Source of the DNA: Escherichia coli
GTDB taxonomy: Bacteria; Pseudomonadota; Gammaproteobacteria; Enterobacterales; Enterobacteriaceae
Length of the DNA stretch: 64,000 bases
Assembly: GCF_003018115.1 (NCBI RefSeq)
Contig: NZ_CP027457.1
Direction: 5' to 3' (one strand)
Position numbers and translations under genes: made by a program. This document shows positions 34,999 through 63,000 of the stretch, piece after piece. Every line of letters begins with the position of its first letter. The stretch's first letter is position 1. The notes under the pieces were generated by a model. That model did no database searches. It saw only the letters and a list, made by a program, of their open reading frames with translations, and was not told the DNA's origin.

Positions 34999-36183
34999 TT
35001 AAACGGGCTGCCCCTGATGCGACATCCGCGTCGCCAGCGGTAGCCAGCACAGCACGATCAACAATCCCATTAAGGTCATCAACAACCCCAGGCTGCCCTG
35101 ACCGGTTTGCGGCAACATCGCTGATAGCGACGCCAGCACGCCGGAACCAATGTTTTGCAGACCACCGACCAGCGCGCCAGCCGTGCCCGCCAGGAAGGGG
35201 AACGGCTCCATCGCGCCGCTGGTCGCCAGCGGAAACAGCATCCCGGCACCGAAAAAGAACAGCGCGGCGGGAACAAGCAGCGTCCAGACATTCATCACGC
35301 CAAACCAGTCGGGGATCCACATCAGCAAGCCAGCCAGCAGGCAGCAGATAACCGACTGCCACATCAACGTTGAGAAGCGTTTATTAGGACGCCCGGCAAA
35401 CCATGCCCCAAAAAATGCCGCCGGAATCGGCAGAATAAACAAAATACTGACCGTCATACTGCTCAGCCCTAACACCGCGCCCATCAGCACGCCGGAGCAG
35501 GCTTCAAAGGCGGCAATCCCGGCCAGACCGCCAATCAGCATCAGCAAATAACAGTTAAAACCGCCGTTACCGAAAAGCGTTTTATAACTGGTAAGCAGGC
35601 GCGTGCGCGGTGCATCGACCGGACGCGTTTCCGGCATCCAGCGGGCCATACTGAAGGTCACACCAGCACAAAGAACCAACAAAAAGAGATAACAGGCGCG
35701 CCAGTTCCACATCGTATCCAGCAGACCGCCGATTAGCGGTGCGAGCAACGGACTAACAAGAATCCCCATGTTTAACAGGCTGTTAGCATGGCGCAACTGT
35801 GTCCGTTCATATAAATCACGCGGCAAAGTACGCGCCATTACGCCGCCAACGCCGGTGCCCATCCCCTGCATCGCGCTGGCGGCAATTAACACCGTCAAAC
35901 TGGAGGTCGTGACCGCGACCAGCGTTGCCAGCATAAAAATGGACATTCCGATGAGGATCACCGGTCGGCGGCCCACGCGGTCGGAAATCGGGCCATAAAA
36001 CAGCTGTGAGACACCGTAAGTCAGCAGATAAGCGCCCATTACGCTCTGCACCGCCCCTTCACGGACGTTGAGATCGCGCGCCATATCGGCAATAGCTGGA
36101 ATATAAATGGTTTGCGCCATCTGACCGACGGCCACGAGTAATACCAACATCAATAACAAATTGACGTTTCTTTGCCTTTTCAT
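34999..36183 (-). CDS. emrD: MFS multidrug efflux transporter EmrD
   Basis: ORF 34999..36189; from Met3 the product is MKRQRNVNLLLMLVLLVAVGQMAQTIYIPAIADMARDLNVREGAVQ..., 394 aa. Confidence 0.9.
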   Translation of the reverse strand: MKRQRNVNLLLMLVLLVAVGQMAQTIYIPAIADMARDLNVREGAVQSVMGAYLLTYGVSQLFYGPISDRVGRRPVILIGMSIFMLATLVAVTTSSLTVLIAASAMQGMGTGVGGVMARTLPRDLYERTQLRHANSLLNMGILVSPLLAPLIGGLLDTMWNWRACYLFLLVLCAGVTFSMARWMPETRPVDAPRTRLLTSYKTLFGNGGFNCYLLMLIGGLAGIAAFEACSGVLMGAVLGLSSMTVSILFILPIPAAFFGAWFAGRPNKRFSTLMWQSVICCLLAGLLMWIPDWFGVMNVWTLLVPAALFFFGAGMLFPLATSGAMEPFPFLAGTAGALVGGLQNIGSGVLASLSAMLPQTGQGSLGLLMTLMGLLIVLCWLPLATRMSHQGQPV

Positions 36184-36359
36184 TATCACGGATGCTTTTA
36201 TAAAAATAATTAGAATAAGTCACTACGCATTCCCATAAATGCGGGAGAGGAATCTATCACATTGATAAATGTTAGCCAGATATACGCCAGGAATGGGGAA
36301 TTGTTTAGCGGCAGAATATGTAAACAAAAGCGGCAATAAATGTTGCCGGGAGGGATTAC

Positions 36360-36480
36360 GTGCGAACTGTAACCCTCTCCCTGAAAGGGCGAGGGGGAAA
36401 CCACCGTTCCCTTTCAGAAAATGAGCTAAACATTGCACGGGACGGTCCCCTCGCCCCTTTGGGGAGAGGGCTAGGGTGAG
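36360..36480. repeat. Nested inverted-repeat intergenic element (REP/BIME-like, family not identified)
   Basis: ccctctccc...gggcgagggg on the left arm pairs with cccctcgccc...gggagaggg on the right arm; ORF-track frames here (36223..36537, 36356..36544) look like palindrome artefacts. Confidence 0.45.
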
Positions 36481-36550
36481 GGGCACAGGCAGCGCAGGTG
36501 CAAACATTCTGCTGGTAGAAGAAGCCCCCAACTCCAACCCGCACGCTAAA

Positions 36551-36579
36551 TATAAAAGGGGAGCGGTTACCCGCTCCCC
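36551..36579 (-). terminator. Rho-independent terminator of tisB
   Basis: ggggagcgg-ttac-ccgctcccc perfect 9-bp hairpin; on the minus strand it is followed by a TTTTATA tract and lies just downstream of the tisB stop. Confidence 0.6.
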
Positions 36580-36601
36580 TTTGGTGCGACTTGAATCTGA
36601 A

Positions 36602-36691
36602 TTACTTCAGGTATTTCAGAACAGCATCAAGCAGTTGCAGTGCTGCAACAATGAGTTTGAGGATAAGAATGGCGATATCCACCAGGCTCAT
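36602..36691 (-). CDS. tisB: Type I toxin TisB (29-aa SOS-induced membrane peptide)
   Basis: Reverse complement encodes MSLVDIAILILKLIVAALQLLDAVLKYLK; matches TisB as I recall it (my recollection has Asn at position 2). Located between emrD and ivbL as in K-12. Below the ORF-track size cut-off. Confidence 0.88.
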   Translation of the reverse strand: MSLVDIAILILKLIVAALQLLDAVLKYLK

Positions 36692-36793
36692 ACGCGTCTC
36701 CTGTGGTTCAGGAGCACTGCCAGCTGACGTACCTTTCCGCTGCCTGTTGCCAGCTGTTGTGCACGCGGTATCTCAAGGAGAAACGTTGTGCTT

Positions 36794-36814
36794 GTTGACA
36801 TAACACAGTGTGCT
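36794..36814 (-). promoter_or_regulatory. IstR-1 antisense target site within the tisAB mRNA leader
   Basis: gttgacataacacagtgtgct (plus strand) ~100 nt upstream of tisB is near-identical to the plus-strand segment at 37052-37072; the minus-strand transcript is therefore complementary to the RNA from 37052 over 21 nt with one G-U pair. Confidence 0.5.
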
Positions 36815-36927
36815 CACGCGGGGTTAAGGCGCTGACGGCACCACCCGTTTCAGCCAGGACTTAGTGCGCCGGGTAACGATACGGCCCCCGCATAACACAT
36901 TGCGTACAGTGATATTATAGAAGTTTA

Positions 36928-36943
36928 CTGTATAAATAAACAG
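36928..36943. promoter_or_regulatory. LexA box (SOS box) of the divergent tisAB / istR-2 promoters
   Basis: CTGTATAAATAAACAG fits CTGT-N8-ACAG, placed between tisB (minus) and the istR region (plus). Confidence 0.7.
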
Positions 36944-37051
36944 TAATATTTAGACAAAACGTAAACTGTGATCGATACTCAACTATGTACTAAATACGTC
37001 AAAATTCGTGCCGAAATTGCGCGTTCTGCGCGGAACAGGTATACTTTCAGT

Positions 37052-37126
37052 GTTGACATAATACAGTGTGCTTTGCGGTTACCAGCCGCAGGCGGCTGAC
37101 GAAACCTCGCTCCGGCGGGGTTTTTT
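37052..37126 (+). ncRNA. istR: IstR-1 antisense sRNA (antitoxin of tisB); IstR-2 would start ~65 nt upstream and share the 3' end
   Basis: Promoter-like -35 TTGCGC (37017-22) and -10 TATACT (37040-45) with 17-nt spacing; transcript would start near 37052 with the 21-nt region complementary to the tisAB leader and end at a GC-rich stem plus T6 near 37121-37126, giving ~75 nt. Confidence 0.6.
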
Positions 37127-37255
37127 GTTACCTGCAACTCAGTACAAAACGTGATCAACCCCTCAATTTTCCCTTGCTGAAAAATTTTCCATTGTCTCCT
37201 CTGTAAAGCTGTGCTTGTATAAATATTGTTAAACACAAAACCAACAAGGTCCCCA

Positions 37256-37354
37256 ATGACTACTTCCATGTTCAACGCAAAACTACTACCAACTGCGCCA
37301 TCCGCCGCAGTGGTCGTCGTGCGTGTGGTGGTGGTCGTCGGCAATGCGCCGTAG
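37256..37354 (+). CDS. ivbL: ilvB operon leader peptide IvbL (32 aa)
   Basis: ATG ACT ACT TCC ATG TTC AAC GCA AAA CTA CTA CCA ACT GCG CCA TCC GCC GCA GTG GTC GTC GTG CGT GTG GTG GTG GTC GTC GGC AAT GCG CCG TAG = MTTSMFNAKLLPTAPSAAVVVVRVVVVVGNAP, a Val/Leu-rich attenuation leader. Confidence 0.85.
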   Translation: MTTSMFNAKLLPTAPSAAVVVVRVVVVVGNAP

Positions 37355-37381
37355 GGACTGGAACAACACACGATTCCAAAA

Positions 37382-37411
37382 CCCCGCCGGCGCAAACCGG
37401 GCGGGGTTTTT
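37382..37411 (+). terminator. ilvB attenuator (rho-independent terminator after ivbL)
   Basis: ccccgccgg ... ccgggcgggg hairpin followed by TTTTT, between ivbL and ilvB. Confidence 0.7.
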
Positions 37412-37459
37412 CGTTTAAGCACCTCCCGGAAAGTCGGCCCAGAAGAAAAGGACTGGAGC

Positions 37460-39148
37460 ATGGCAAGTTCGGGCACATCATCGACGCGTAAGCGCTTTAC
37501 CGGCGCAGAATTTATCGTTCATTTCCTGGAACAGCAGGGCATTAAGATTGTGACGGGCATTCCGGGCGGTTCTATCCTGCCTGTTTACGATGCCTTAAGC
37601 CAAAGCACGCAAATCCGCCATATTCTGGCTCGCCATGAACAGGGCGCGGGGTTTATCGCTCAGGGAATGGCGCGCACCGACGGTAAACCGGCGGTCTGTA
37701 TGGCCTGTAGCGGACCGGGTGCGACTAACCTGGTGACCGCCATTGCCGATGCGCGGCTGGATTCCATCCCGCTGATTTGCATCACTGGTCAGGTTCCCGC
37801 CTCGATGATCGGTACCGACGCCTTCCAGGAAGTCGATACCTACGGCATCTCTATCCCCATCACCAAACACAACTATCTGGTCAGACATATCGAAGAACTC
37901 CCGCAGGTCATGAGCGATGCCTTCCGCATTGCGCAATCAGGCCGCCCTGGCCCGGTGTGGATAGACATTCCTAAGGATGTACAAACGGCAGTTTTTGAGA
38001 TTGAAGCTCAGCCCGCGGTGGCAGAAAAAGCCGCTGCACCCGCCTTTAGCGAAGAAAGCATTCGTGACGCGGCTGCGATGATTAACGCCGCCAAACGCCC
38101 GGTGCTTTATCTGGGTGGTGGTGTAATCAACGCACCTGCGCGGGTGCGTGAACTGGCGGAGAAAGCGCAACTGCCTACTACCATGACCTTAATGGCGCTG
38201 GGTATGCTGCCAAAAGCGCATCCGCTGTCGCTGGGTATGCTGGGGATGCACGGCGTGCGCAGCACCAACTATATTTTGCAGGAGGCGGATTTGTTGATTG
38301 TGCTCGGTGCGCGTTTTGATGACCGGGCGATTGGCAAAACCGAGCAGTTCTGCCCGAATGCCAAAATTATTCATGTCGATATCGACCGCGCAGAGCTGGG
38401 TAAAATCAAGCAACCGCATGTGGCGATTCAGGCGGATGTTGATGACGTGCTGGCGCAGTTGATCCCGCTGGTGGAAGCGCAACCGCGTGCAGAGTGGCAC
38501 CAGTTGGTGGCGGATTTGCAGCGCGAATTTCCGTGTCCAATCCCGAAAGCGTGCGATCCGTTAAGCCATTACGGCCTGATCAACGCCGTTGCCGCCTGTG
38601 TCGATGACAATGCAATTATCACCACCGACGTAGGTCAGCATCAGATGTGGACCGCGCAGGCTTATCCGCTCAATCGCCCACGCCAGTGGCTGACCTCCGG
38701 TGGGCTGGGCACGATGGGCTTTGGCCTGCCTGCGGCGATTGGCGCAGCGCTGGCGAACCCGGATCGCAAAGTGTTGTGTTTCTCCGGCGACGGCAGCCTG
38801 ATGATGAATATTCAGGAGATGGCGACCGCCAGTGAAAATCAGCTGGATGTCAAAATCATTCTGATGAACAACGAAGCGCTGGGGCTGGTGCATCAGCAAC
38901 AGAGTCTGTTCTACAAGCAGGGCGTTTTTGCCGCTACCTATCCGGGCAAAATCAACTTTATGCAGATTGCCGCCGGATTCGGCCTCGAAACCTGTGATTT
39001 GAATAACGAAGCCGATCCGCAGGCTGCATTGCAAGAAATCATCAATCGCCCTGGTCCGGCGCTGATCCATGTGCGTATTGATGCCGAAGAAAAAGTGTAC
39101 CCGATGGTGCCGCCAGGTGCGGCGAATACTGAAATGGTGGGGGAATAA
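37460..39148 (+). CDS. ilvB: Acetolactate synthase I large subunit
   Basis: 562-aa ORF MASSGTSSTRKRFTGAEFIVHFLEQQGIKIVTGIPGGSILPVYDAL..., a ThDP-dependent enzyme. Confidence 0.95.
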   Translation: MASSGTSSTRKRFTGAEFIVHFLEQQGIKIVTGIPGGSILPVYDALSQSTQIRHILARHEQGAGFIAQGMARTDGKPAVCMACSGPGATNLVTAIADARLDSIPLICITGQVPASMIGTDAFQEVDTYGISIPITKHNYLVRHIEELPQVMSDAFRIAQSGRPGPVWIDIPKDVQTAVFEIEAQPAVAEKAAAPAFSEESIRDAAAMINAAKRPVLYLGGGVINAPARVRELAEKAQLPTTMTLMALGMLPKAHPLSLGMLGMHGVRSTNYILQEADLLIVLGARFDDRAIGKTEQFCPNAKIIHVDIDRAELGKIKQPHVAIQADVDDVLAQLIPLVEAQPRAEWHQLVADLQREFPCPIPKACDPLSHYGLINAVAACVDDNAIITTDVGQHQMWTAQAYPLNRPRQWLTSGGLGTMGFGLPAAIGAALANPDRKVLCFSGDGSLMMNIQEMATASENQLDVKIILMNNEALGLVHQQQSLFYKQGVFAATYPGKINFMQIAAGFGLETCDLNNEADPQAALQEIINRPGPALIHVRIDAEEKVYPMVPPGAANTEMVGE

Positions 39149-53825: not shown

Positions 53826-54026
53826 CGTATTTACAGGAGGGTTATTGCTCTGGCGGGAAAGCTCTCCTGTTCTGCCCCCTGATAACCCTTGATCAGGTAT
53901 TGTTCTTATCTTGTTGTTATTTCCATTATTCCGCCTGTATTCATCATTTGCTAATCATGAATCATCATTTTCCCTCATGTTAAAGAAAGGTCATTTAATC
54001 TGAACGCATAGCGACAGGGATGACAA

Positions 54027-57000
54027 ATGGCAGGGAAAGCGCATGGGAACGGCGATCGTCGGGGCGATAACACCATATGTGGATTGGGGGATCGTTTACG
54101 TCGTCTGACCGCCGGTATTTGCCTGATAACACAAACTATATTCCCTGTTATGGCCGCTGCCCCTACGCATATTAACCATGCGCATTCGGATACTGCCACG
54201 TCACTGATCCTGCCGAACGTTAAAACTATTCCATATACCCTGGGGGCATTGGAATCGCCATCAACGGTCGCGGCACGCTTTGGTATCACCGTTGATGAAT
54301 TACGTCGCCTGAATCAGTTTCGTACCTTTGCGCGGGGCTTTGACAATGTGCGTCAGGGCGATGAAATAGATGTGCCCCTCATTAACAGTAATAGCCTCGA
54401 AGCGCGCAACTTGAAAGCAATGCAGATGGAGCGCGACGGCAAAGATCCGCAAATGCAGGTCGCGGAAGTGGCGCAGCAAAGCGGAACACTTTTAGCTCGC
54501 GATATGGACAGCGAACAGGCGGCGAGTATGGCGCGTGGCTGGGTGGCTTCTTCTGCATCTGCGCAGGCAACGGACTGGCTCAGTCGTTGGGGAACTGCCC
54601 GGGTATCTCTTGGTGTGGATGAAGATTTCAGCCTTAAAAGCTCGTCATTTGAATTTCTCCATCCCTGGTACGAAACGCCGGATAACCTGGTCTTCAGCCA
54701 GCACACACTTCACCGTACGGATGATCGCACTCAAACCAACCACGGTATCGGCTGGCGTTACTTCACCCCGAGCTGGATGTCTGGCGTCAATATGTTTATC
54801 GATCATGACCTGACCCGCTATCACACCCGAACCGGGATGGGCGTTGAATACTGGCGCGATTACCTGAAACTGAGCGGCAACGGTTATCTGCGCCTCAGTA
54901 ACTGGCGTAGTGCACCGGAACTGGACAATGACTATGAAGCACGTCCGGCGAACGGTTGGGATCTTCGCGCTGAAGGCTGGTTACCGGCCTGGCCGCAGCT
55001 GGGCGGCAAGCTGGTCTATGAACAATATTATGGCGATGAAGTGGCGCTGTTTGGTAAAGACGAGCGACAAAACGATCCTCACGCGATTACCGCAGGTTTG
55101 AGTTACACCCCCGTTCCTCTGATCTCCTTTAGTGCCGAGCAACGGCAGGGCAAACAGGGAGAAAACGACACCCGAATTGGTATGGAGTTGACGTTGCAAC
55201 CTGGTCATTCACTGCAAAAACAGCTCGATCCAGCTGAAGTTGCAGCTCGGCGCAGCCTTGTGGGCAGTCGCTATGACCTGGTCGATCGTAATAACAATAT
55301 CGTCCTCGAATATCGCAAGAAAGAGCTGGTACGGCTGACGCTGACCGATCCGCTGAAAGGCAAGCCGGGTGAGGTTAAATCGCTGGTTTCTTCCTTACAG
55401 ACCAAATATGCGCTGAAAGGTTATGACATTGAAGCCGCCGCCCTGCAATCAGCGGGCGGAAAAGTAGCAGTTTCCGGCAAGGATATTCAGGTCACTATTC
55501 CTCCTTACCGATTCACGGCAATGCCTGAAACCGACAACACTTACCCGATAGCGGTTACAGCGGAAGATTCGAAAGGAAATTTCTCCCGGCGTGAAGAAAG
55601 TATGGTGGTCGTGGAAAAATCCACACTAAGCCTCGCCGATTCAACGCTTTCTGTCGATCTGCAAATCCTGCTTGCTGATGGAAAATCAACCTCAACGCTG
55701 ACCTATACCGCGCGAGATTCCAGCGGCAAGCCGATCCCCGGTATGACGTTAAAAACACAGGCAAAAGGTTTGCAGGATTTCGCCTTAAGCGAATGGAAAG
55801 ACAACGGTAACGGAACCTATACCCAAATAGTTACCGCCGGGAAGACGTCTGGCGCGTTATCGCTGATGCCGCAATTTAACGGCGACGATATCGCTAAGAC
55901 GCCAGCGCTGATTGCCATTGTAGCGAATACGGCATCCCGTGCTGACTCCACGATTGAGACAGACCAGGATAATTACGTCGCGGGTAAGCCGATAGTCGTT
56001 AAAGTGACCCTGAGAGATGATAACGGCAACGGGGTTACCGGAAGAAAAGAACTTCTCAAACAAACCGTTAAAGTAGACAACACGAAGGCTGATGCTGTTA
56101 GTGCCTGGACGGAAGAAAGTGAGGGAATTTACAAAGCAAGCTATACGGCCCATCTCATTGGCGACAAATTAACGGCCCAGCTAACGATGCCCGGCTGGCA
56201 AACCAAACATTCGGATGCGTTCAGTATTGCGGGTGATAAAGATACCGCCAAAATCGCTGCGATGCAGATCACCGCGAATAACGCAGTTGCCAGACGCGAT
56301 CACAATACCGTCGCTGTGACGGTCAGGGATGTGCATCAAAATTTACTGCAGGGACAAAATGTTACCTTCACGGTCGTGAATGGTGCGGCGGTTTTTGCCG
56401 ATCCAAACGGCGGTATTGTGACGACAGATAAAGACGGAATTGCCAGCGTTAACCTTGCCAGTGACCAGGCGGTAAACAGTCTTATCAAGGCCGAGATCAA
56501 TGGCAGTAGTCAGTCTGTGGAAGTGAGCTTTATCACTGGCGATATCTCGCAGCTGACCTCCACCATCAAGACGGACGATGTGTCATACACTGCGGGTGGC
56601 AAGATAAAAGTGTCCGTCACCCTTATGGATGAGCAGAAAAACCAGGTGAAAGGGATGGCTTCGCTGCTCGCGGGTAGCGGTGTGGTCGAGGTGAGCGGTA
56701 CAGATAAAAATGAAACGGGTAACTGGAGCGAAGAGTCTGACGGCGTTTATACCACCACCCGAACCGCGAAGATTGCTGGCGATCGCCATTACGCCACGCT
56801 GAAACTATCGACATGGAGTAGCGCGCAGCAATCCGATGCGTATGCCATCCGCGAAAGCGGAGCTGTGCTGGCTTATTCCTCCATCGTTACCGACAAAACG
56901 ACCTACACCGCGGGCGGTGCGATAAAAGTTACGGTGACACTCAAGGATAGCTATGAAAACCTGGTCGGGGGGCAACGAGACGCTATCAACCTGGCTATCC

Positions 57001-60000
57001 AGCTGCCAAATACAAAAGCGGAAAGCATCGCCTGGAATGAAGATCAAAAAGGAATTTATACCGCAACGTATACCGCCTTACTCCCTGGCACCGGTTTAAA
57101 AGCACAGCTACAGATGTCCGGCTGGGCGAACGCTCTGACTTCAAATGATTACAGTATTAGTGGCGATGCCGCCAGCGCACAAATTGTCGCGATGCAAGTG
57201 ACAACGGGTAACCCGGATGTGCTGGCAAATGGCAGCGATCGACATACGGTGAATGTCCGGGTGGAAGATCAGTTTGGCAATGTGCTGCCGGAGCAGACCG
57301 TCACCTTTACGGTGACGAAGGGGGCGGCTGTATTTGCCAATGCAGGGCAGAGCGCAGATATCAGGACGGATGCGCATGGTATGGCAGAGGTTGATCTGAG
57401 CAGTACCGTAGCGGATGCCAGCACTGTTGAGGCTAAGGTCAATCAAAGCAGCGATAGTAAAACGGTGAACTTTGTTGCTGATGTCAGCACGGCGCAGATC
57501 GCTGATCTGGTGGTCATTAAGGATGGCTCAGTGGCAGACGGTTCGACGGCGAACACGCTGCGGGTGAGGGTGACGGATGCGTTCGGTAATGCGCTGGGCG
57601 GGCAGACGGTCAGCGTGTTGGCGGACAACAGCGCAACGGTCGCTCCGACGGTTATCACCGAGCCGGACGGGACGGTGGAGATCTCTGTTACCAGCCAGAC
57701 GGCGGGAGTCAGTGCGGTCACCGCCAGTATCAACAACAGCAGCCTGAGCCGGAACGTGACGTTTGTTGCCGATGTCAGGACGGCGAAGATCGCTGATCTG
57801 GTGGTGATGCAGGACGGCTCAGTGGCAGATGGCACGACGGCGAACACGCTGCGGGCGAGGGTGACCGATGCGTTCGGCAATGCGCTTGCCGGGCAGACGG
57901 TCAGCGTGACTGCAGGCAACAGCGCAACGGTCGCTTCGACAGTGACCACAAAGCCGGACGGCACGGTGGAGATCAGTGTCACCAGCCAGACGGCGGGGAT
58001 CAGTACAGTCACTGCAACCATCAACAGCAGCAGTCAGAGCCGGAACGTGACGTTTGTCGCGGATGTCAGGACGGCGAAGATCGCTGATCTGGAGGTCATT
58101 AAGGATGGTTCAGAGGCGGACGGTGCGACGGCGAACACGCTGCGTGCGAGGGTAACCGATGCATTCGGAAATACGCTTGCCGGACAGACGGTCAGCGTGT
58201 TGGCAGGCAACGGCGCAACGGTCGCTCCGACGGTTATCACCGAGCCGGACGGGACGGTGGAGATCAGTGTCACCAGCCAGACTGCCGGAATCAGTGCAGT
58301 CACTGCAACCATCAACAGCAGTAGTCAGAGTCAGAACGTGACGTTTGTCGCGGATGTCAGGACGGCGAAGATCGCTGATCTGGAGGTCATTAAGGATGGT
58401 TCAGAGGCGGACGGTGCGACGGCGAACACGCTGCGTGCGAGGGTAACCGATGCGTTCGGCAATGCGCTTGCCGGGCAGACGGTCAGCGTGACTGCAGGCA
58501 ACAGCGCAACGGTCGCTTCGACGGTGACCACAAAGCCGGACGGGACGGTGGAGATCAGTGTCACCAGTCAGACGGCGGGGAGCAGTACAGTCACTGCCAG
58601 CATCAACAGCAGCAGCCTGAGCCGGGATGTGACGTTTATTGCGGATGTCAGGACGGCGCAGATCGCGGAGCTGGTGGTCATTAAGGATGGTTCAGAGGCG
58701 GACGGTGCGACGGCGAATACGCTGCGGGCGAGGGTGACCGATGCGTTCGGCAATGCGCTGGGCGGGCAGACGGTCAGCGTGTTGGCGGACAACGGCGCAA
58801 CGGTGTCTCCGACGGTTACCACAGAGTCGGACGGGACGGTGGAGATCAGTGTCACCAGCCAGACTGCCGGAATCAGTGCAGTCACTGCAACCATCAACAG
58901 CAGTAGTCAGAGTCAGAACGTGACGTTTGTCGCGGATGTCAGGACGGCGAAGATCGCTGATCTGGAGGTCATTAAGGATGGTTCAGAGGCGGACGGTGCG
59001 ACGGCGAACACGCTGCGTGCGAGGGTAACCGATGCGTTCGGCAATGCGCTTGCCGGGCAGACGGTCAGCGTGACTGCAGGCAACAGCGCAACGGTCGCTT
59101 CGACGGTGACCACAAAGCCGGACGGGACGGTGGAGATCAGTGTCACCAGTCAGACGGTGGGGAGCAGTACAGTCACTGCCAGCATCAACAGCAGCAGCCT
59201 GAGCCGGGATGTGACGTTTATTGCGGATGTCAGGACGGCGCAGATCGCGGAGCTGGTGGTCATTAAGGATGGTTCAGAGGCGGACGGTGCGACGGCGAAT
59301 ACGCTGCGGGCGAGGGTGACCGATGCGTTCGGCAATGCGCTGGGCGGGCAGACGGTCAGCGTGTTGGCGGACAACGGCGCAACGGTGTCTCCGACGGTTA
59401 CCACAGAGTCGGACGGGACGGTGGAGATCAGTCTCACCAGCCAGACGGCGGGCACCAGTGTGGTCACTGCCAGCATCAACAACAGCAGCCTGAGCCAGAG
59501 CGTGACATTTATTGCCGATGTCAGGACGGCGAAGATCGCGGATCTGGTGGTCATTAAGGACGGCTCAGTGGCAGATGGCGCGACGGCGAACACGCTGCGG
59601 GTGAGGGTCACCGATGCATTCGGCAATGCGCTTGCCGGGCAGACGGTCAGCGTGTTGTCGGACAACGGCGCAACGACTGCCCCGACGGTGAGCACAGAGC
59701 CGGACGGGACGGTGGAGATCAGTGTCACCAGCCAGACTGCCGGAATCAGTGCAGTCACTGCAACCATCAACAGCAGTAGTCAGAGTCAGAACGTGACGTT
59801 TGTCGCGGATGTCAGGACGGCGAAGATCGCTGATCTGGAGGTCATTAAGGATGGTTCAGAGGCGGACGGTGCGACGGCGAACACGCTGCGTGCGAGGGTA
59901 ACCGATGCGTTCGGCAATGCGCTTGCCGGGCAGACGGTCAGCGTGACTGCAGGCAACAGCGCAACGGTCGCTTCGACGGTGACCACAAAGCCGGACGGGA

Positions 60001-63000
60001 CGGTGGAGATCAGTGTCACCAGTCAGACGGCGGGGAGCAGTACAGTCACTGCCAGCATCAACAGCAGCAGCCTGAGCCGGGATGTGACGTTTATTGCGGA
60101 TGTCAGGACGGCGCAGATCGCGGAGCTGGTGGTCATTAAGGATGGTTCAGAGGCGGACGGTGCGACGGCGAATACGCTGCGGGCGAGGGTGACCGATGCA
60201 TTCGGAAATACGCTTGCCGGACAGACGGTCAGCGTGTTGGCAGGCAACGGCGCAACGGTCGCTCCGACGGTTATCACCGAGCCGGACGGGACGGTGGAGA
60301 TCAGTGTCACCAGCCAGACTGCCGGAATCAGTGCAGTCACTGCAACCATCAACAGCAGTAGTCAGAGTCAGAACGTGACGTTTGTCGCGGATGTCAGGAC
60401 GGCGAAGATCGCTGATCTGGAGGTCATTAAGGATGGTTCAGAGGCGGACGGTGCGACGGCGAACACGCTGCGTGCGAGGGTAACCGATGCGTTCGGCAAT
60501 GCGCTTGCCGGGCAGACGGTCAGCGTGACTGCAGGCAACAGCGCAACGGTCGCTTCGACGGTGACCACAAAGCCGGACGGGACGGTGGAGATCAGTGTCA
60601 CCAGTCAGACGGCGGGGAGCAGTACAGTCACTGCCAGCATCAACAGCAGCAGCCTGAGCCGGGATGTGACGTTTATTGCGGATGTCAGGACGGCGAAGAT
60701 CGCTGATCTGGAGGTCATTAAGGATGGTTCAGAGGCGGACGGTGCGACGGCGAACACGCTGCGTGCGAGGGTAACCGATGCGTTCGGCAATGCGCTTGCC
60801 GGGCAGACGGTCAGCGTGACTGCAGGCAACAGCGCAACGGTCGCTTCGACGGTGACCACAAAGCCGGACGGGACGGTGGAGATCAGTGTCACCAGTCAGA
60901 CGGCGGGGAGCAGTACAGTCACTGCCAGCATCAACAGCAGCAGCCTGAGCCGGGATGTGACGTTTATTGCGGATGTCAGGACGGCGCAGATCGCGGAGCT
61001 GGTGGTCATTAAGGATGGTTCAGAGGCGGACGGTGCGACGGCGAATACGCTGCGGGCGAGGGTGACCGATGCGTTCGGCAATGCGCTGGGCGGGCAGACG
61101 GTCAGCGTGTTGGCGGACAACGGCGCAACGGTCGCTTCGACGGTGACCACAAAGCCGGACGGGACGGTGGAGATCAGTGTCACCAGCCAGACGGCGGGCA
61201 CCAGTGTGGTCACTGTCAGCATCAACAACAGCAGCCAGAGCCGGAACGTGACATTTATCGCCGATGTCAGGACGGCGAAGATCGCTGAACTGGAGGTCAT
61301 TCGGGATAACGCGGTGGCAGACGGTTCGACGGCGAACACGCTGCGGGCGAGGGTAACCGATGCGTTCGGTAATGCGCTTGCCGGGCAGACGGTCAGCGTG
61401 TTGGCGGATAACGGCGCAACGGTCGCTCCGACGGTCATCACAGGGCCGGACGGTACGGTGGAAATCAGTGTCACCAGCCAGACGGCGGGCACCAGTGTGG
61501 TCACTGCCAGCATCAACAACAGCAGCCTGAGCCAGAGCGTGATGTTTGTCGCCGATATCAGGACGGCGCAGATCGCGGATCTGGTGGTCATTAAGGATGG
61601 TTCAGAGGCGGACGGTTCGACGGCGAACACGCTGCGGGCGAGGGTGACCGATGCGTTCGGCAATGCGCTTGCCGGGCAGACGGTCAGCGTGACGACGGAC
61701 AACGGCGCAACGACTGCCCCGACGGTGAGCACAGAGCCGGACGGCACGGTGGAAATCAGTGTCACCAGCCAGACGGCGGGGATCAGTACAGTCACTGCAA
61801 CCATCAACAACAGCACCCTGAGTCAGAACGTGACATTTATCGCCGATGTCAGAACGGCGCAGATCGCGAGTCTGGAGGTGACGCAGGATAACGCCGTGGC
61901 TGACGGCGCAATGGCGGATATGCTGCGGGCGAGGGTCACCGATGCGTTCGGTAATACGCTTGCCGGGCAGACGGTCAGCGTGATGGCGGACAACGGTGCA
62001 GCGGTCGCTTCGACGATGACCACAAAGCCGGACGGCACGGTGGAGATCAGTGTCACCAGCCAGACGGCAGGAATCAGTGTGGTCACCGCCAGCATCAACA
62101 GCAGCAGTCAGAGCCGGGATGTGACGTTTATCGCCGATATCAGGACGGCGCAGATCGCGGACCTGGTGGTCATTAAGGACGGCTCAGTGGCTGACGGCGC
62201 AATGGCGAATAAGCTGCGGGCGAGGGTCACCGATGCGTTCGGTAATGCACTTGCCGGGCAGACGGTCAGCGTGTTCGCAGGCAACGGTGCCACGACTGCT
62301 CCGACGGTCACCACGCAGCCGGACGGCACGGTGGAGATCTCTGTCACCAGCCAGACGGCAGGCACCAGTGCGGTCACTGCCAGCATTAACAGCAGCAGCC
62401 AGAGCCGGGATGTGACGTTTATCGCCGATGTCAGAACGGCGAAGATCGCTGATCTGGTGGTCATTAAGGACGGCTCAGTGGCAGACGGCGCAATGGCGAA
62501 CACGCTGCAGGTGAAGGTCACCGATGCGTTCGGCAATGCGCTTGGCGGACAGACGGTCAGCGTGACGGCAGGCAACAGCGCAACGGTCACTCCGACGGTC
62601 ACCACGCAGTCGGACGGTACGGTGGAGATCAGTGTCACCAGTCAGACGGCGGGGATCAGTACAGTCACTGCCAGCATCAACAACAGCAGCCTGAGCCGGA
62701 ACGTGACGTTTGTCGCGGATGTCAGGACGGCGCAGATCGCGGATCTGGTGGTCATTAAGGACGACTCAGTGGCCGACGGTGCAATGGCGAATATTCTGCG
62801 GGCGAGGGTGACCGATGCGTTCGGTAATACGCTTGCCGGGCAGACGGTCAGCGTGTTGTCGGACAACGGTGCAACGGTCGCTTCGACGATGACCACAAAG
62901 CCGGATGGCACGGTGGAGATCAGTGTCACCAGCCAGACGGCGGGGATCAGTACGGTCACTGCAACCATCAACAACAGCAGCCTGAGCCGGGACGTGACAT

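What the first reader, a model, noticed from the sequence alone, without database searches (positions are those of the whole stretch)
36360..36480. Nested GC-rich palindrome between emrD and tisB that generates phantom ORFs
Seen in sequence: arms ccctctccc...gggcgagggg and cccctcgccc...gggagaggg pair in nested fashion across ~120 bp, upstream of the tisB terminator. The track ORFs 36223..36537 and 36356..36544 are translations of this palindrome (PLPKGARG-type low-complexity peptides). It is probably a member of a dispersed intergenic repeat family, but I cannot name the family with confidence.
Basis: seen in the sequence. Interest (0 to 1): 0.2.

Follow-up and report, generated by a model that had tools for sequence, protein, structure and literature searches.

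The report
BoxC triplex-motif repeat pair, emrD–tisB spacer
The GC-rich palindrome is an inverted pair of BoxC (PIT/TMECO "triplex motif") repeats, a known non-coding dispersed repeat of E. coli; this copy is already in a published catalogue, so the finding is real but ordinary.

Summary
The palindrome is real. Arms 36370-36396 and 36447-36473 are 27 nt and 85% complementary, and both strands fold far better than shuffles (z about -4.5). It is two inverted units of the E. coli BoxC repeat, also called PIT element or TMECO intrastrand triplex motif.

- **Right unit (+, 36448-36483):** a complete three-block motif, 35/36 identical to K-12 copies.
- **Left unit (-, 36395-36360):** keeps the hairpin and tail but lacks its third block. 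A 12-nt loss is inferred from paralogues.

Related sequence is found at a median of 15 places per genome in 5408 of 5426 complete E. coli genomes. The same 36-mer at this locus is already listed in Holder et al. 2015 (Table S8, strains SE11 and E24377A).

The pair lies in a 170-bp allele-specific segment (36357-36526) present in about 1509 genomes. K-12, O157 and four outgroup Escherichia lineages carry a single REP element in that slot instead, so the BoxC allele is derived. One strain has an 87-nt deletion between BoxC direct repeats.

The ORFs across it are mechanical: no Pfam match, not in the protein collection, not annotated in RefSeq.

Most likely it is a structure-prone, functionless repeat that causes local instability. 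It is already known and of low interest.

The parts
36357..36526 (.). Allele-specific 170-bp segment that holds the BoxC pair. K-12, O157 and AGR6137 have a single ~37-nt REP in this slot instead.
   Evidence: Pairwise and multiple alignments with K-12, O157 and AGR6137. 1509 of 5426 genomes cover at least 80% of 36190-36601.
36448..36483 (+). Complete BoxC/TMECO triplex motif, type A with one mismatch. Block 1 CCCTCGCCCC 36448-36457, loop TTT, block 2 GGGGAGAGGG 36461-36470, loop CTA, block 3 GGGTGAGGGG 36474-36483.
   Evidence: 35/36 identical to K-12 TMECO #7/#11/#15. 10/10 purine-motif triads with 1 Watson-Crick mismatch. The exact 36-mer is listed 15 times in Holder 2015 Table S8. The SE11 entry lies between tisB and ysdE.
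36360..36395 (-). Truncated type-B BoxC unit on the - strand. Block 1 CCCTCGCCC 36395-36387, loop TTTCA 36386-36382, block 2 GGGAGAGGG 36381-36373, then the unit tail TTACAGTTCGCAC 36372-36360. The third block (CCGGGGTGAGGG) is missing.
   Evidence: The first 23 nt are identical to K-12 TMECO #10. Alignment with the cpxA-yiiM and rhaA-rhaD paralogues shows a 12-nt gap (CCCTCACCCCGG on +) with the tail GTGCGAACTG kept.
36398..36446 (.). Spacer of about 50 nt between the two units. It is homologous to the spacers of other B(-)/A(+) pairs, made up of the B-unit tail plus the A-unit head.
   Evidence: Alignment with L004 and L005. The K-12 lldD-trmL pair sequence was printed and compared by eye.
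36484..36501 (+). Tail of the right (A) unit, CACAGGCAGCGCAGGTGC. It resembles the AACAGGCCGGCAC... tails of other A units.
   Evidence: Alignment with L002, L004, L005 and L006.
36386..36396 (+). Direct repeat AGGGCGAGGGG. It partners 36473-36483 (AGGGTGAGGGG), and the ends of an 87-nt deletion seen in strain 100416 fall in this repeat pair.
   Evidence: the repeat finder family D4, spacing 87. Alignment of L027.
36555..36582 (-). tisB intrinsic terminator, a neighbour and not part of the repeat. 12-bp stem followed by a T-rich tail.
   Evidence: Terminator scan. Conserved in all tisB-bearing alleles and in outgroups.
36265..36339 (+). ysdE small ORF (24 aa), a neighbour. It is the only feature RefSeq annotates in this spacer. 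It converges on tisB across the repeat slot.
   Evidence: Annotated under the match in all listed genomes. Coordinates transferred from L007.

Best explanation
The feature is an inverted pair of BoxC repeat units, also called PIT elements or TMECO intrastrand triplex motifs. BoxC is a known non-coding repeat scattered through E. coli intergenic regions.

**Anatomy.** The right unit (+ strand) is intact: a C-rich block, a G-rich block that pairs with it, and a second G-rich block that can lie on the hairpin as a third strand (purine-motif triplex). The left unit (- strand, type B) keeps the hairpin and tail but has lost its third block. Because the units are inverted, the region can fold either as two local hairpins or as one long hairpin.

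**How it most likely works.** It has no dedicated cellular function at this locus. It is a structure-prone passenger that replaced an ancestral REP element in one E. coli sublineage. I infer that its main effect is local instability. When the DNA is single-stranded, hairpin or triplex folding and the repeated blocks favour polymerase stalling and slippage, which produces deletions between the blocks.

**Shown here:**
- family identity and copy number;
- presence/absence polymorphism at the locus;
- REP present in every outgroup examined;
- two deletion footprints bounded by BoxC direct repeats;
- no support for coding.

**Taken from the literature:**
- triplex formation in vitro for near-identical sequences;
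- no stable triplex detected in vivo;
- no promoter or terminator activity;
- excess variability around these motifs.

**Inferred:** the slippage mechanism, and neutrality of the element.

**Confidence.** The figure of 0.8 is for the whole statement. Family identity alone is about 0.97. The 'functionless passenger that causes slippage' part is about 0.7.
For: **Identity**
- The 36-nt motif at 36448-36483 is 35/36 identical to K-12 TMECO #7/#11/#15, with 10/10 allowed triads (Table 1).
- Holder 2015 states that TMECO is the motif earlier described as BoxC and PIT.
- The exact 36-mer is in their Table S8, and the SE11 entry maps to this locus. SE11 is 99.0% identical to the window over 36190-36601.

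**Dispersal**
- Related sequence is in 5408 of 5426 genomes, median 15 places per genome.

**Pair architecture**
- The same B(-)/spacer/A(+) arrangement occurs at rhaA-rhaD and cpxA-yiiM and at K-12 lldD-trmL.
- Holder reports that pairs always combine a type A with a type B unit.

**Derived state**
- A REP or REP remnant occupies the slot in K-12, O157 and AGR6137.
- The same is true in E. whittamii, Escherichia sp. E1V33 and two further species representatives.

**Instability**
- A 12-nt loss of the left third block is inferred from paralogues.
- An 87-nt deletion in strain 100416 ends in the direct repeats 36386-36396 / 36473-36483.
- Holder reports that partial deletions at palindromic sites leave a hairpin, and that TM loci are more variable than controls.

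**Non-coding**
- No Pfam hit, not in the protein collection, and only ysdE is annotated in the spacer.

**Other**
- No Rfam family matches.
- No terminator-like site falls inside the pair.
Against: - Neutrality is not demonstrated. The allele is 98-100% conserved across about 1500 genomes, though that may only reflect recent common ancestry.
- The slot always holds some stem-loop element (REP or BoxC) in the tisB-bearing Escherichia examined. This could mean a structured element there is useful.
- Triplex formation was not detected in vivo by DMS footprinting (Holder 2015), so the structural cause of instability is unproven.
- The 12-nt loss is inferred from paralogues. No allele with an intact left unit at this locus was found.
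Confidence: 0.8

Rival explanations
1. RNA-level role. The pair acts like the REP it replaced, as a stable stem-loop at the 3' end of the convergent ysdE and tisB transcripts. It would protect against 3' exonucleases, or insulate the emrD promoter region from tisB read-through.
For: - The slot between convergent ysdE and tisB holds a stem-loop element in every tisB-bearing Escherichia allele examined: REP in K-12, O157 and outgroups, BoxC here.
- Transcripts of either strand would fold very stably, at -72.8 and -68.5 kcal/mol.
- REP elements are known mRNA 3'-end stabilisers (established knowledge; abstracts).
Against: - PIT/BoxC elements showed no promoter or terminator activity and no effect on RNA polymerase in earlier experiments, as summarised by Holder 2015.
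- The pair lies after a strong intrinsic tisB terminator, so little - strand transcription should reach it.
- No T-run follows the hairpin.
- Holder found no positional preference of these motifs relative to genes.
Confidence: 0.12
2. Mobile element. The roughly 110-170-bp pair is a MITE-like non-autonomous element that a transposase or recombinase inserted into the REP site.
For: - It has 27-nt terminal inverted arms and a MITE-like size.
- Near-identical units are dispersed in the genome.
- It shows presence/absence polymorphism at three loci, each time alternating with REP/BIME.
- A few copies lie on plasmids: 33 places.
Against: - No target-site duplication is visible at the junctions.
- The REP is replaced rather than interrupted.
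- At cpxA-yiiM essentially the whole spacer differs between alleles, so no clean insertion ends can be defined.
- Most K-12 units are solo rather than paired (13 of 23), and Holder found no association with transposons, phages or plasmids.
- The best paralogue is only about 80-84% identical, so there is no recent donor copy.
Confidence: 0.1
3. The ORFs across the palindrome (104 aa, 62 aa, 39 aa) encode real small proteins.
For: They are open reading frames with start codons.
Against: - No Pfam match at E up to 1.
- The exact sequences are absent from a collection of about 15 billion predicted proteins.
- RefSeq annotates only ysdE in this spacer.
- The DNA is absent at this locus from about 72% of genomes.
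- It suffers 12-nt and 87-nt deletions and loop changes of the kind expected in repeat DNA.
- The peptides are simply the translation of the repeat blocks.
Confidence: 0.01

Closest known systems
BoxC / PIT element / TMECO intrastrand triplex motif of E. coli (Bergler 1992 and Bachellier 1999 as cited in PMC4666352 and PMC2267715; Hoyne and Maher 2000; Holder et al. 2015, PMC4666352)
   Same: - The right unit has the three-block sequence, 35/36 identical to K-12 copies.
- The location is intergenic.
- It forms an inverted A/B pair like five K-12 sites.
- The locus is variable between strains, with partial deletions that leave a hairpin.
- This very copy is in the published Table S8.
   Different: - Loop 2 is CTA, not the canonical TTA (type A) or CCG (type B).
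- The partner unit lacks its third block, so only one unit of the pair is triplex-capable.
REP / BIME elements
   Same: Both are short GC-rich intergenic palindromes. A REP occupies exactly this slot in K-12, O157 and outgroup Escherichia, and REP/BIME alternates with BoxC pairs at cpxA-yiiM and rhaA-rhaD.
   Different: There is no sequence similarity. The REP core CTTATCNGGCCTAC is absent from 36357-36526. REP has no third G-block, and REPs have an associated transposase (TnpA-REP) whereas none is known for BoxC.
MITEs (miniature inverted-repeat transposable elements)
   Same: Size of about 110-170 bp, terminal inverted arms, long hairpin potential, dispersed copies.
   Different: No target-site duplication. 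Each arm is a self-standing unit that usually occurs alone. No cognate transposase is known.
'Switched' intergenic regions in E. coli (replacement of a spacer between conserved genes; recalled from Oren et al. 2014 and Thorpe et al. 2018, not read here)
   Same: The flanking genes and the first tens of bases of each flank are conserved while the middle of the spacer is replaced.
   Different: Here the swap is confined to 170 versus 37 bp and involves two named repeat families.

Membership tests
BoxC / PIT / TMECO | Three-block sequence CCCTC(G/T)CCC(C) - loop - GGG(G)AGAGGG - 3-nt loop - GGGTGAGGG(G) | tested here: met
   The right unit 36448-36483 is 35/36 identical to K-12 TMECO #7/#11/#15 of Holder 2015 Table 1.
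BoxC / PIT / TMECO | Block 3 is compatible with purine-motif triads (G*G-C, A*A-T, T*A-T) on the block 1/2 hairpin | tested here: met
   10/10 positions are allowed, with one Watson-Crick mismatch, as in the published 'A mm' type.
BoxC / PIT / TMECO | Third block present in the partner (left) unit | tested here: not met
   The - strand unit reads CCCTCGCCC-TTTCA-GGGAGAGGG and then TTACAGTTCGCAC, with no GGGTGAGGG. A 12-nt gap relative to paralogues shows it is a truncated member.
BoxC / PIT / TMECO | Many dispersed, intergenic copies in the same genome | tested here: met
   12 places in a genome with the identical allele, median 15 per genome, 5408 of 5426 genomes, and no annotated feature under the listed matches. 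Paralogues lie in the rhaA-rhaD, cpxA-yiiM, yijF-gldA, gcvP-ygfF and lldD-trmL spacers.
BoxC / PIT / TMECO | Inverted pairs combine a type A unit with a type B unit | tested here: inconclusive
   The right unit is A-like (loop CTA versus TTA). The left unit matches type B #10 over blocks 1-2 and carries the B-type tail, but its diagnostic loop 2 is deleted.
BoxC / PIT / TMECO | The single strand folds into a stable intramolecular triplex in vitro | not testable with these tools
   Shown by CD and NMR for K-12 type A, B and mm oligonucleotides (Holder 2015). The CTA-loop variant itself was not measured.
BoxC / PIT / TMECO | Listed in a published catalogue of the family | tested here: met
   The exact 36-mer occurs 15 times in Table S8. 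SE11 4102635-4102670 lies between tisB and ysdE.
REP / BIME | REP core consensus (REP2 primer core CTTATCNGGCCTAC, primer text in PMC3867629) | tested here: not met
   With up to 2 mismatches the window hits are at 15424, 16679, 16728 and 21895, none within 36357-36526. The K-12 allele of this slot carries a REP-like sequence that the window segment does not align to.
ERIC / IRU | ERIC core (ERIC2 primer AAGTAAGTGACTGGGGTGAGCG) | tested here: not met
   0 matches in the window with up to 3 mismatches.
MITE | Terminal inverted repeats flanked by a target-site duplication | tested here: not met
   Inverted arms are present, but the junction sequences ...GGGAT|TACG... and ...CCCCC|AACTCC... show no duplication, and the REP is replaced rather than split.
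Intrinsic terminator | GC-rich stem-loop followed directly by a T-run | tested here: not met
   The scan finds terminator-like sites at 36582-36555, 36348-36331 and 36684-36670, none within 36360-36483.
Any Rfam RNA family | Covariance-model match at or above the gathering score | tested here: not met
   The only hit over the element is mir-1275 at 19.7 bits against a gathering score of 71, E 0.82. istR nearby scores 144.8 bits.

The most novel reading that the evidence does not exclude
BoxC pairs and REP/BIME elements may be interchangeable occupants of the same intergenic slots because they share a targeting or replacement mechanism. For example, BoxC composites could be copied into REP sites, or REP-directed breaks could be repaired from BoxC templates. 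At all three loci examined (emrD-tisB, cpxA-yiiM, rhaA-rhaD) the BoxC-pair allele alternates with REP/BIME. At emrD-tisB the outgroups indicate that REP came first. The slot also sits 7 nt from the breakpoint of the tisB-istR presence/absence polymorphism, so it might mark a recombination hot spot that shapes carriage of this toxin-antitoxin locus.
Probability: 0.12. Interest if true: 0.45.

Novelty: already known. Interest (0 to 1): 0.1.

Why it matters
It matters little as a discovery. The family has been known since the 1990s and this copy is already catalogued.

It has practical value for annotation. The mechanical ORFs at 36223-36537, 36356-36544 and 36360-36479 should be ignored. The spacer should be labelled 'BoxC/TMECO pair (one unit truncated)'.

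The locus is also a clean natural example of what Holder et al. described statistically. One slot carries an ancestral REP, a derived BoxC pair, and deletion derivatives bounded by the repeat's own blocks, next to a toxin-antitoxin locus that is itself present or absent among strains.

Tried and rejected
- **Rfam, permissive threshold, 35500-37600.** Only istR is real. The mir-1275 hit over the element is chance level.
- **REP and ERIC cores.** Both are absent from the segment. The first paper search for boxC mostly returned rep-PCR typing papers. The useful sources were PMC2267715 and PMC4666352.
- **Coding reading.** No Pfam hit, and the exact sequences are not found in the protein collection.
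- **Terminator or promoter reading.** No consensus site lies inside the pair.
- **Clean insertion with a target-site duplication.** Rejected from the junction alignments. At cpxA-yiiM and rhaA-rhaD the whole spacer differs, so element ends cannot be defined from filled versus empty sites.
- **REP annotation in NC_000913.3.** No repeat features are listed in the copy available. The K-12 sequence in this slot is called a REP from its palindromic sequence (GTCGGATGCG...CTTATCCGCCCTAC), which resembles the REP2 primer core (PMC3867629). No formal consensus search was run on the K-12 locus.
- **K-12 record NZ_CP032667.1 fetched with standard MG1655 coordinates.** The record starts at a different origin and returned the carAB-ileS region, so NC_000913.3 was used instead.
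- **Possible REP remnant.** 'GGTAG' at 36516-36520 might be one, but the evidence is too weak to claim.
- **tisB terminator resemblance.** It matches BoxC block 1 at 16/20 positions (family D1). I treat this as a chance similarity between GC-rich hairpins.

Full report
**Setting.** The window is E. coli DNA.
- emrD lies on the - strand (34999-36189).
- tisB lies on the - strand (36602-36691, MSLVDIAILILKLIVAALQLLDAVLKYLK).
- istR is at 36997-37126 (Rfam, 144.8 bits).
- ilvB starts at 37460.
- The finding sits in the 412-bp emrD-tisB spacer. RefSeq annotates only the 24-codon ysdE there (window 36265-36339, + strand).

The repeat finder reports inverted arms 36370-36396 / 36447-36473, 27 nt, 85% complementary, 50 nt apart. 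The region 36350-36500 folds at -72.8 kcal/mol on + (z -4.31) and -68.5 on - (z -4.76), and no shuffle of 200 does as well.

**What it is.** Each arm is itself a small hairpin.
- On the + strand, 36448-36483 reads CCCTCGCCCC-TTT-GGGGAGAGGG-CTA-GGGTGAGGGG.
- This is the motif that Holder et al. 2015 (PMC4666352) call TMECO. They state it was described earlier as BoxC and as the PIT element.
- It is 35/36 identical to K-12 copies #7, #11 and #15 of their Table 1.
- All ten positions satisfy the purine-motif triad rules, with the single Watson-Crick mismatch typical of their 'A mm' type.
- On the - strand, 36395-36373 reads CCCTCGCCC-TTTCA-GGGAGAGGG, identical to the first 23 nt of K-12 #10 (type B). 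It then continues TTACAGTTCGCAC instead of CCG-GGGTGAGGG.

**The left unit is truncated.** I aligned the pair with paralogous pairs in the rhaA-rhaD and cpxA-yiiM spacers of other strains.
- They show the same B(-)/spacer/A(+) architecture and a homologous spacer of about 50 nt.
- The tail GTGCGAACTG is the same.
- The window has a 12-nt gap (CCCTCACCCCGG) exactly where the left unit's third block should be.
- The left unit is therefore a truncated BoxC unit, most simply explained by slippage between CCCTC repeats. This is an inference.
- K-12's lldD-trmL pair (TMECO 17+18) has the same arrangement.

**Family size.**
- blastn of 36340-36500 against 5426 complete E. coli genomes finds matches in 5408, with a median of 15 places per genome (range 1-28). 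A genome carrying the identical allele has 12 places.
- Petrillo et al. 2008 list BoxC as a known E. coli stem-loop family: 22 members in their search, against 56 bp and 32 copies in the older literature.
- Only this one locus in the 64-kb window carries the motif.
- REP and ERIC cores, checked against primer texts in PMC3867629, are absent from the segment.
- No Rfam family matches.

**Already catalogued.** The exact 36-mer with the CTA loop appears 15 times in Holder's Table S8. Examples are SE11 4102635-4102670 and E24377A 4170381-4170416. In SE11 that position lies between tisB and ysdE/emrD, and SE11 is 99.0% identical to the window across the spacer.

**Polymorphism of the slot.** Alignment with K-12 shows that a 170-bp segment (36357-36526) is allele-specific. 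K-12, O157:H7 and strain AGR6137 have a single REP of about 37 nt in its place, with near-identical flanks.

| Allele | Genomes (of 5426) |
|---|---|
| BoxC pair (at least 80% of 36190-36601) | 1509 |
| REP (at least 80% of the K-12 junction) | 2861 |
| tisB region present | 4358 |
| tisB region not found | 1068 |

In NGF1 and A13 the tisB-istR region is replaced by unrelated sequence, starting at about window position 36350.

**Direction of change.** A degenerate tisB C-terminus pattern scanned over one genome per species returned 13 loci.
- E. whittamii, Escherichia sp. E1V33 and two further Escherichia species representatives all carry a REP or REP remnant (GTCGGATGCG...) in the slot. None carries BoxC.
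- Four of the five Citrobacter/Enterobacter loci have about 1.1 kb, including a membrane-protein-like open frame, between tisB and emrD. In the Salmonella and Escherichia sp. ESNIH1 loci, which begin with the same open frame, no emrD was found within the 1.4 and 0.6 kb available.
- REP is therefore ancestral in Escherichia, and the BoxC pair is a derived replacement in a subset of E. coli.
- No target-site duplication is visible at the junctions.

**Instability.** Strain 100416 carries the BoxC allele with an 87-nt internal deletion. Its ends fall in the direct repeats AGGGCGAGGGG (36386-36396) and AGGGTGAGGGG (36473-36483). The deletion collapses the pair into one hairpin. This matches the 'palindrome effect' and the excess variability around TM loci that Holder et al. 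reported.

GC skew is positive across the whole window. The + strand, which carries the G-rich triplex-capable strand of the intact unit, should therefore be the lagging-strand template. This is an inference.

**Mechanism.** From the literature:
- near-identical oligonucleotides form very stable triplexes in vitro (Tm 70-82 °C);
- duplex wins when the complement is present;
- in vivo DMS footprinting showed no protection;
- earlier work found no promoter or terminator activity.

I therefore commit to this reading: the pair is a non-coding, structure-prone passenger repeat with no dedicated role at this locus, and its main consequence is local slippage and deletion. The rivals are an RNA stem-loop role inherited from the REP it replaced, and MITE-like mobility. 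Neither is excluded, but each has evidence against it. The coding reading is rejected.

**Verdict.** The family is BoxC/PIT/TMECO and the copy is already published, so interest is low. The one thread that might repay a systematic study is the repeated alternation of BoxC pairs with REP/BIME at the same slots.

Noticed in passing
window 36386-36396 and 36473-36483; locus L027 (E. coli strain 100416): A natural derivative of the BoxC-pair allele has an 87-nt internal deletion whose ends fall in these direct repeats. It leaves a single hairpin, CCCTCTCCC-TGAA-AGGGTGAGGG.
   Followed up: partly
L005 1427-1681 vs L011 13498-13602 (cpxA-yiiM); L004 1424-1664 vs L011 4274-4723 (rhaA-rhaD): At two further loci, strains with a BoxC pair alternate with K-12 alleles that carry REP/BIME clusters in the same spacer. 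With emrD-tisB that makes three of three loci examined.
   Followed up: partly
window ~36350 onward to ~37190; loci L008, L009: About 1068 of 5426 E. coli genomes lack tisB-istR. In NGF1 and A13 the region is replaced by about 155 nt of unrelated sequence. The left breakpoint lies 7 nt from the BoxC/REP junction.
   Followed up: partly
window 36265-36339 (+): The small gene ysdE is annotated here in RefSeq genomes. Its start codon is ATA in this window and in O157, but ATG in K-12 and NGF1.
   Followed up: partly
window 36331-36348 (-): A second terminator-like hairpin (CGGCAACATTTATTGCCG followed by CTTTTGTTTA) on the - strand, just past the repeat slot and overlapping the ysdE 3' end. It is conserved in all E. 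coli alleles examined, including the tisB-less ones, and its core (GCGGCAATAAATGTTGCCGG) is kept in the three outgroup Escherichia aligned.
   Followed up: no
window 16679-16741: A genuine REP pair (BIME-like), with exact REP cores on both strands 36 nt apart.
   Followed up: no
window 54024-63998 (+): One uninterrupted open frame of more than 3325 codons running off the window end. GC is 0.60 with strong GC and AT skew in its last 8 kb. The repetitive text resembles a giant Ig-like-repeat adhesin (my reading of the sequence; not tested).
   Followed up: no
plasmid NZ_AP023207.1 59305-59350 (hit H130) and 33 plasmid places: A few BoxC-like units lie on plasmids, although Holder et al. reported no association with mobile elements.
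   Followed up: no
loci L016, L017, L020-L023 (Citrobacter, Salmonella diarizonae, Enterobacter): In these genera tisB is followed within about 120 nt by a membrane-protein-like open frame. In four of the five Citrobacter/Enterobacter loci emrD starts only about 1.1 kb downstream of tisB. In the Salmonella locus no emrD was found within the 1.4 kb available. The tight tisB-emrD spacer holding the repeat slot was seen in Escherichia, and Intestinirhabdus alba also has a short tisB-emrD spacer but with no REP core or BoxC motif detected.
   Followed up: no
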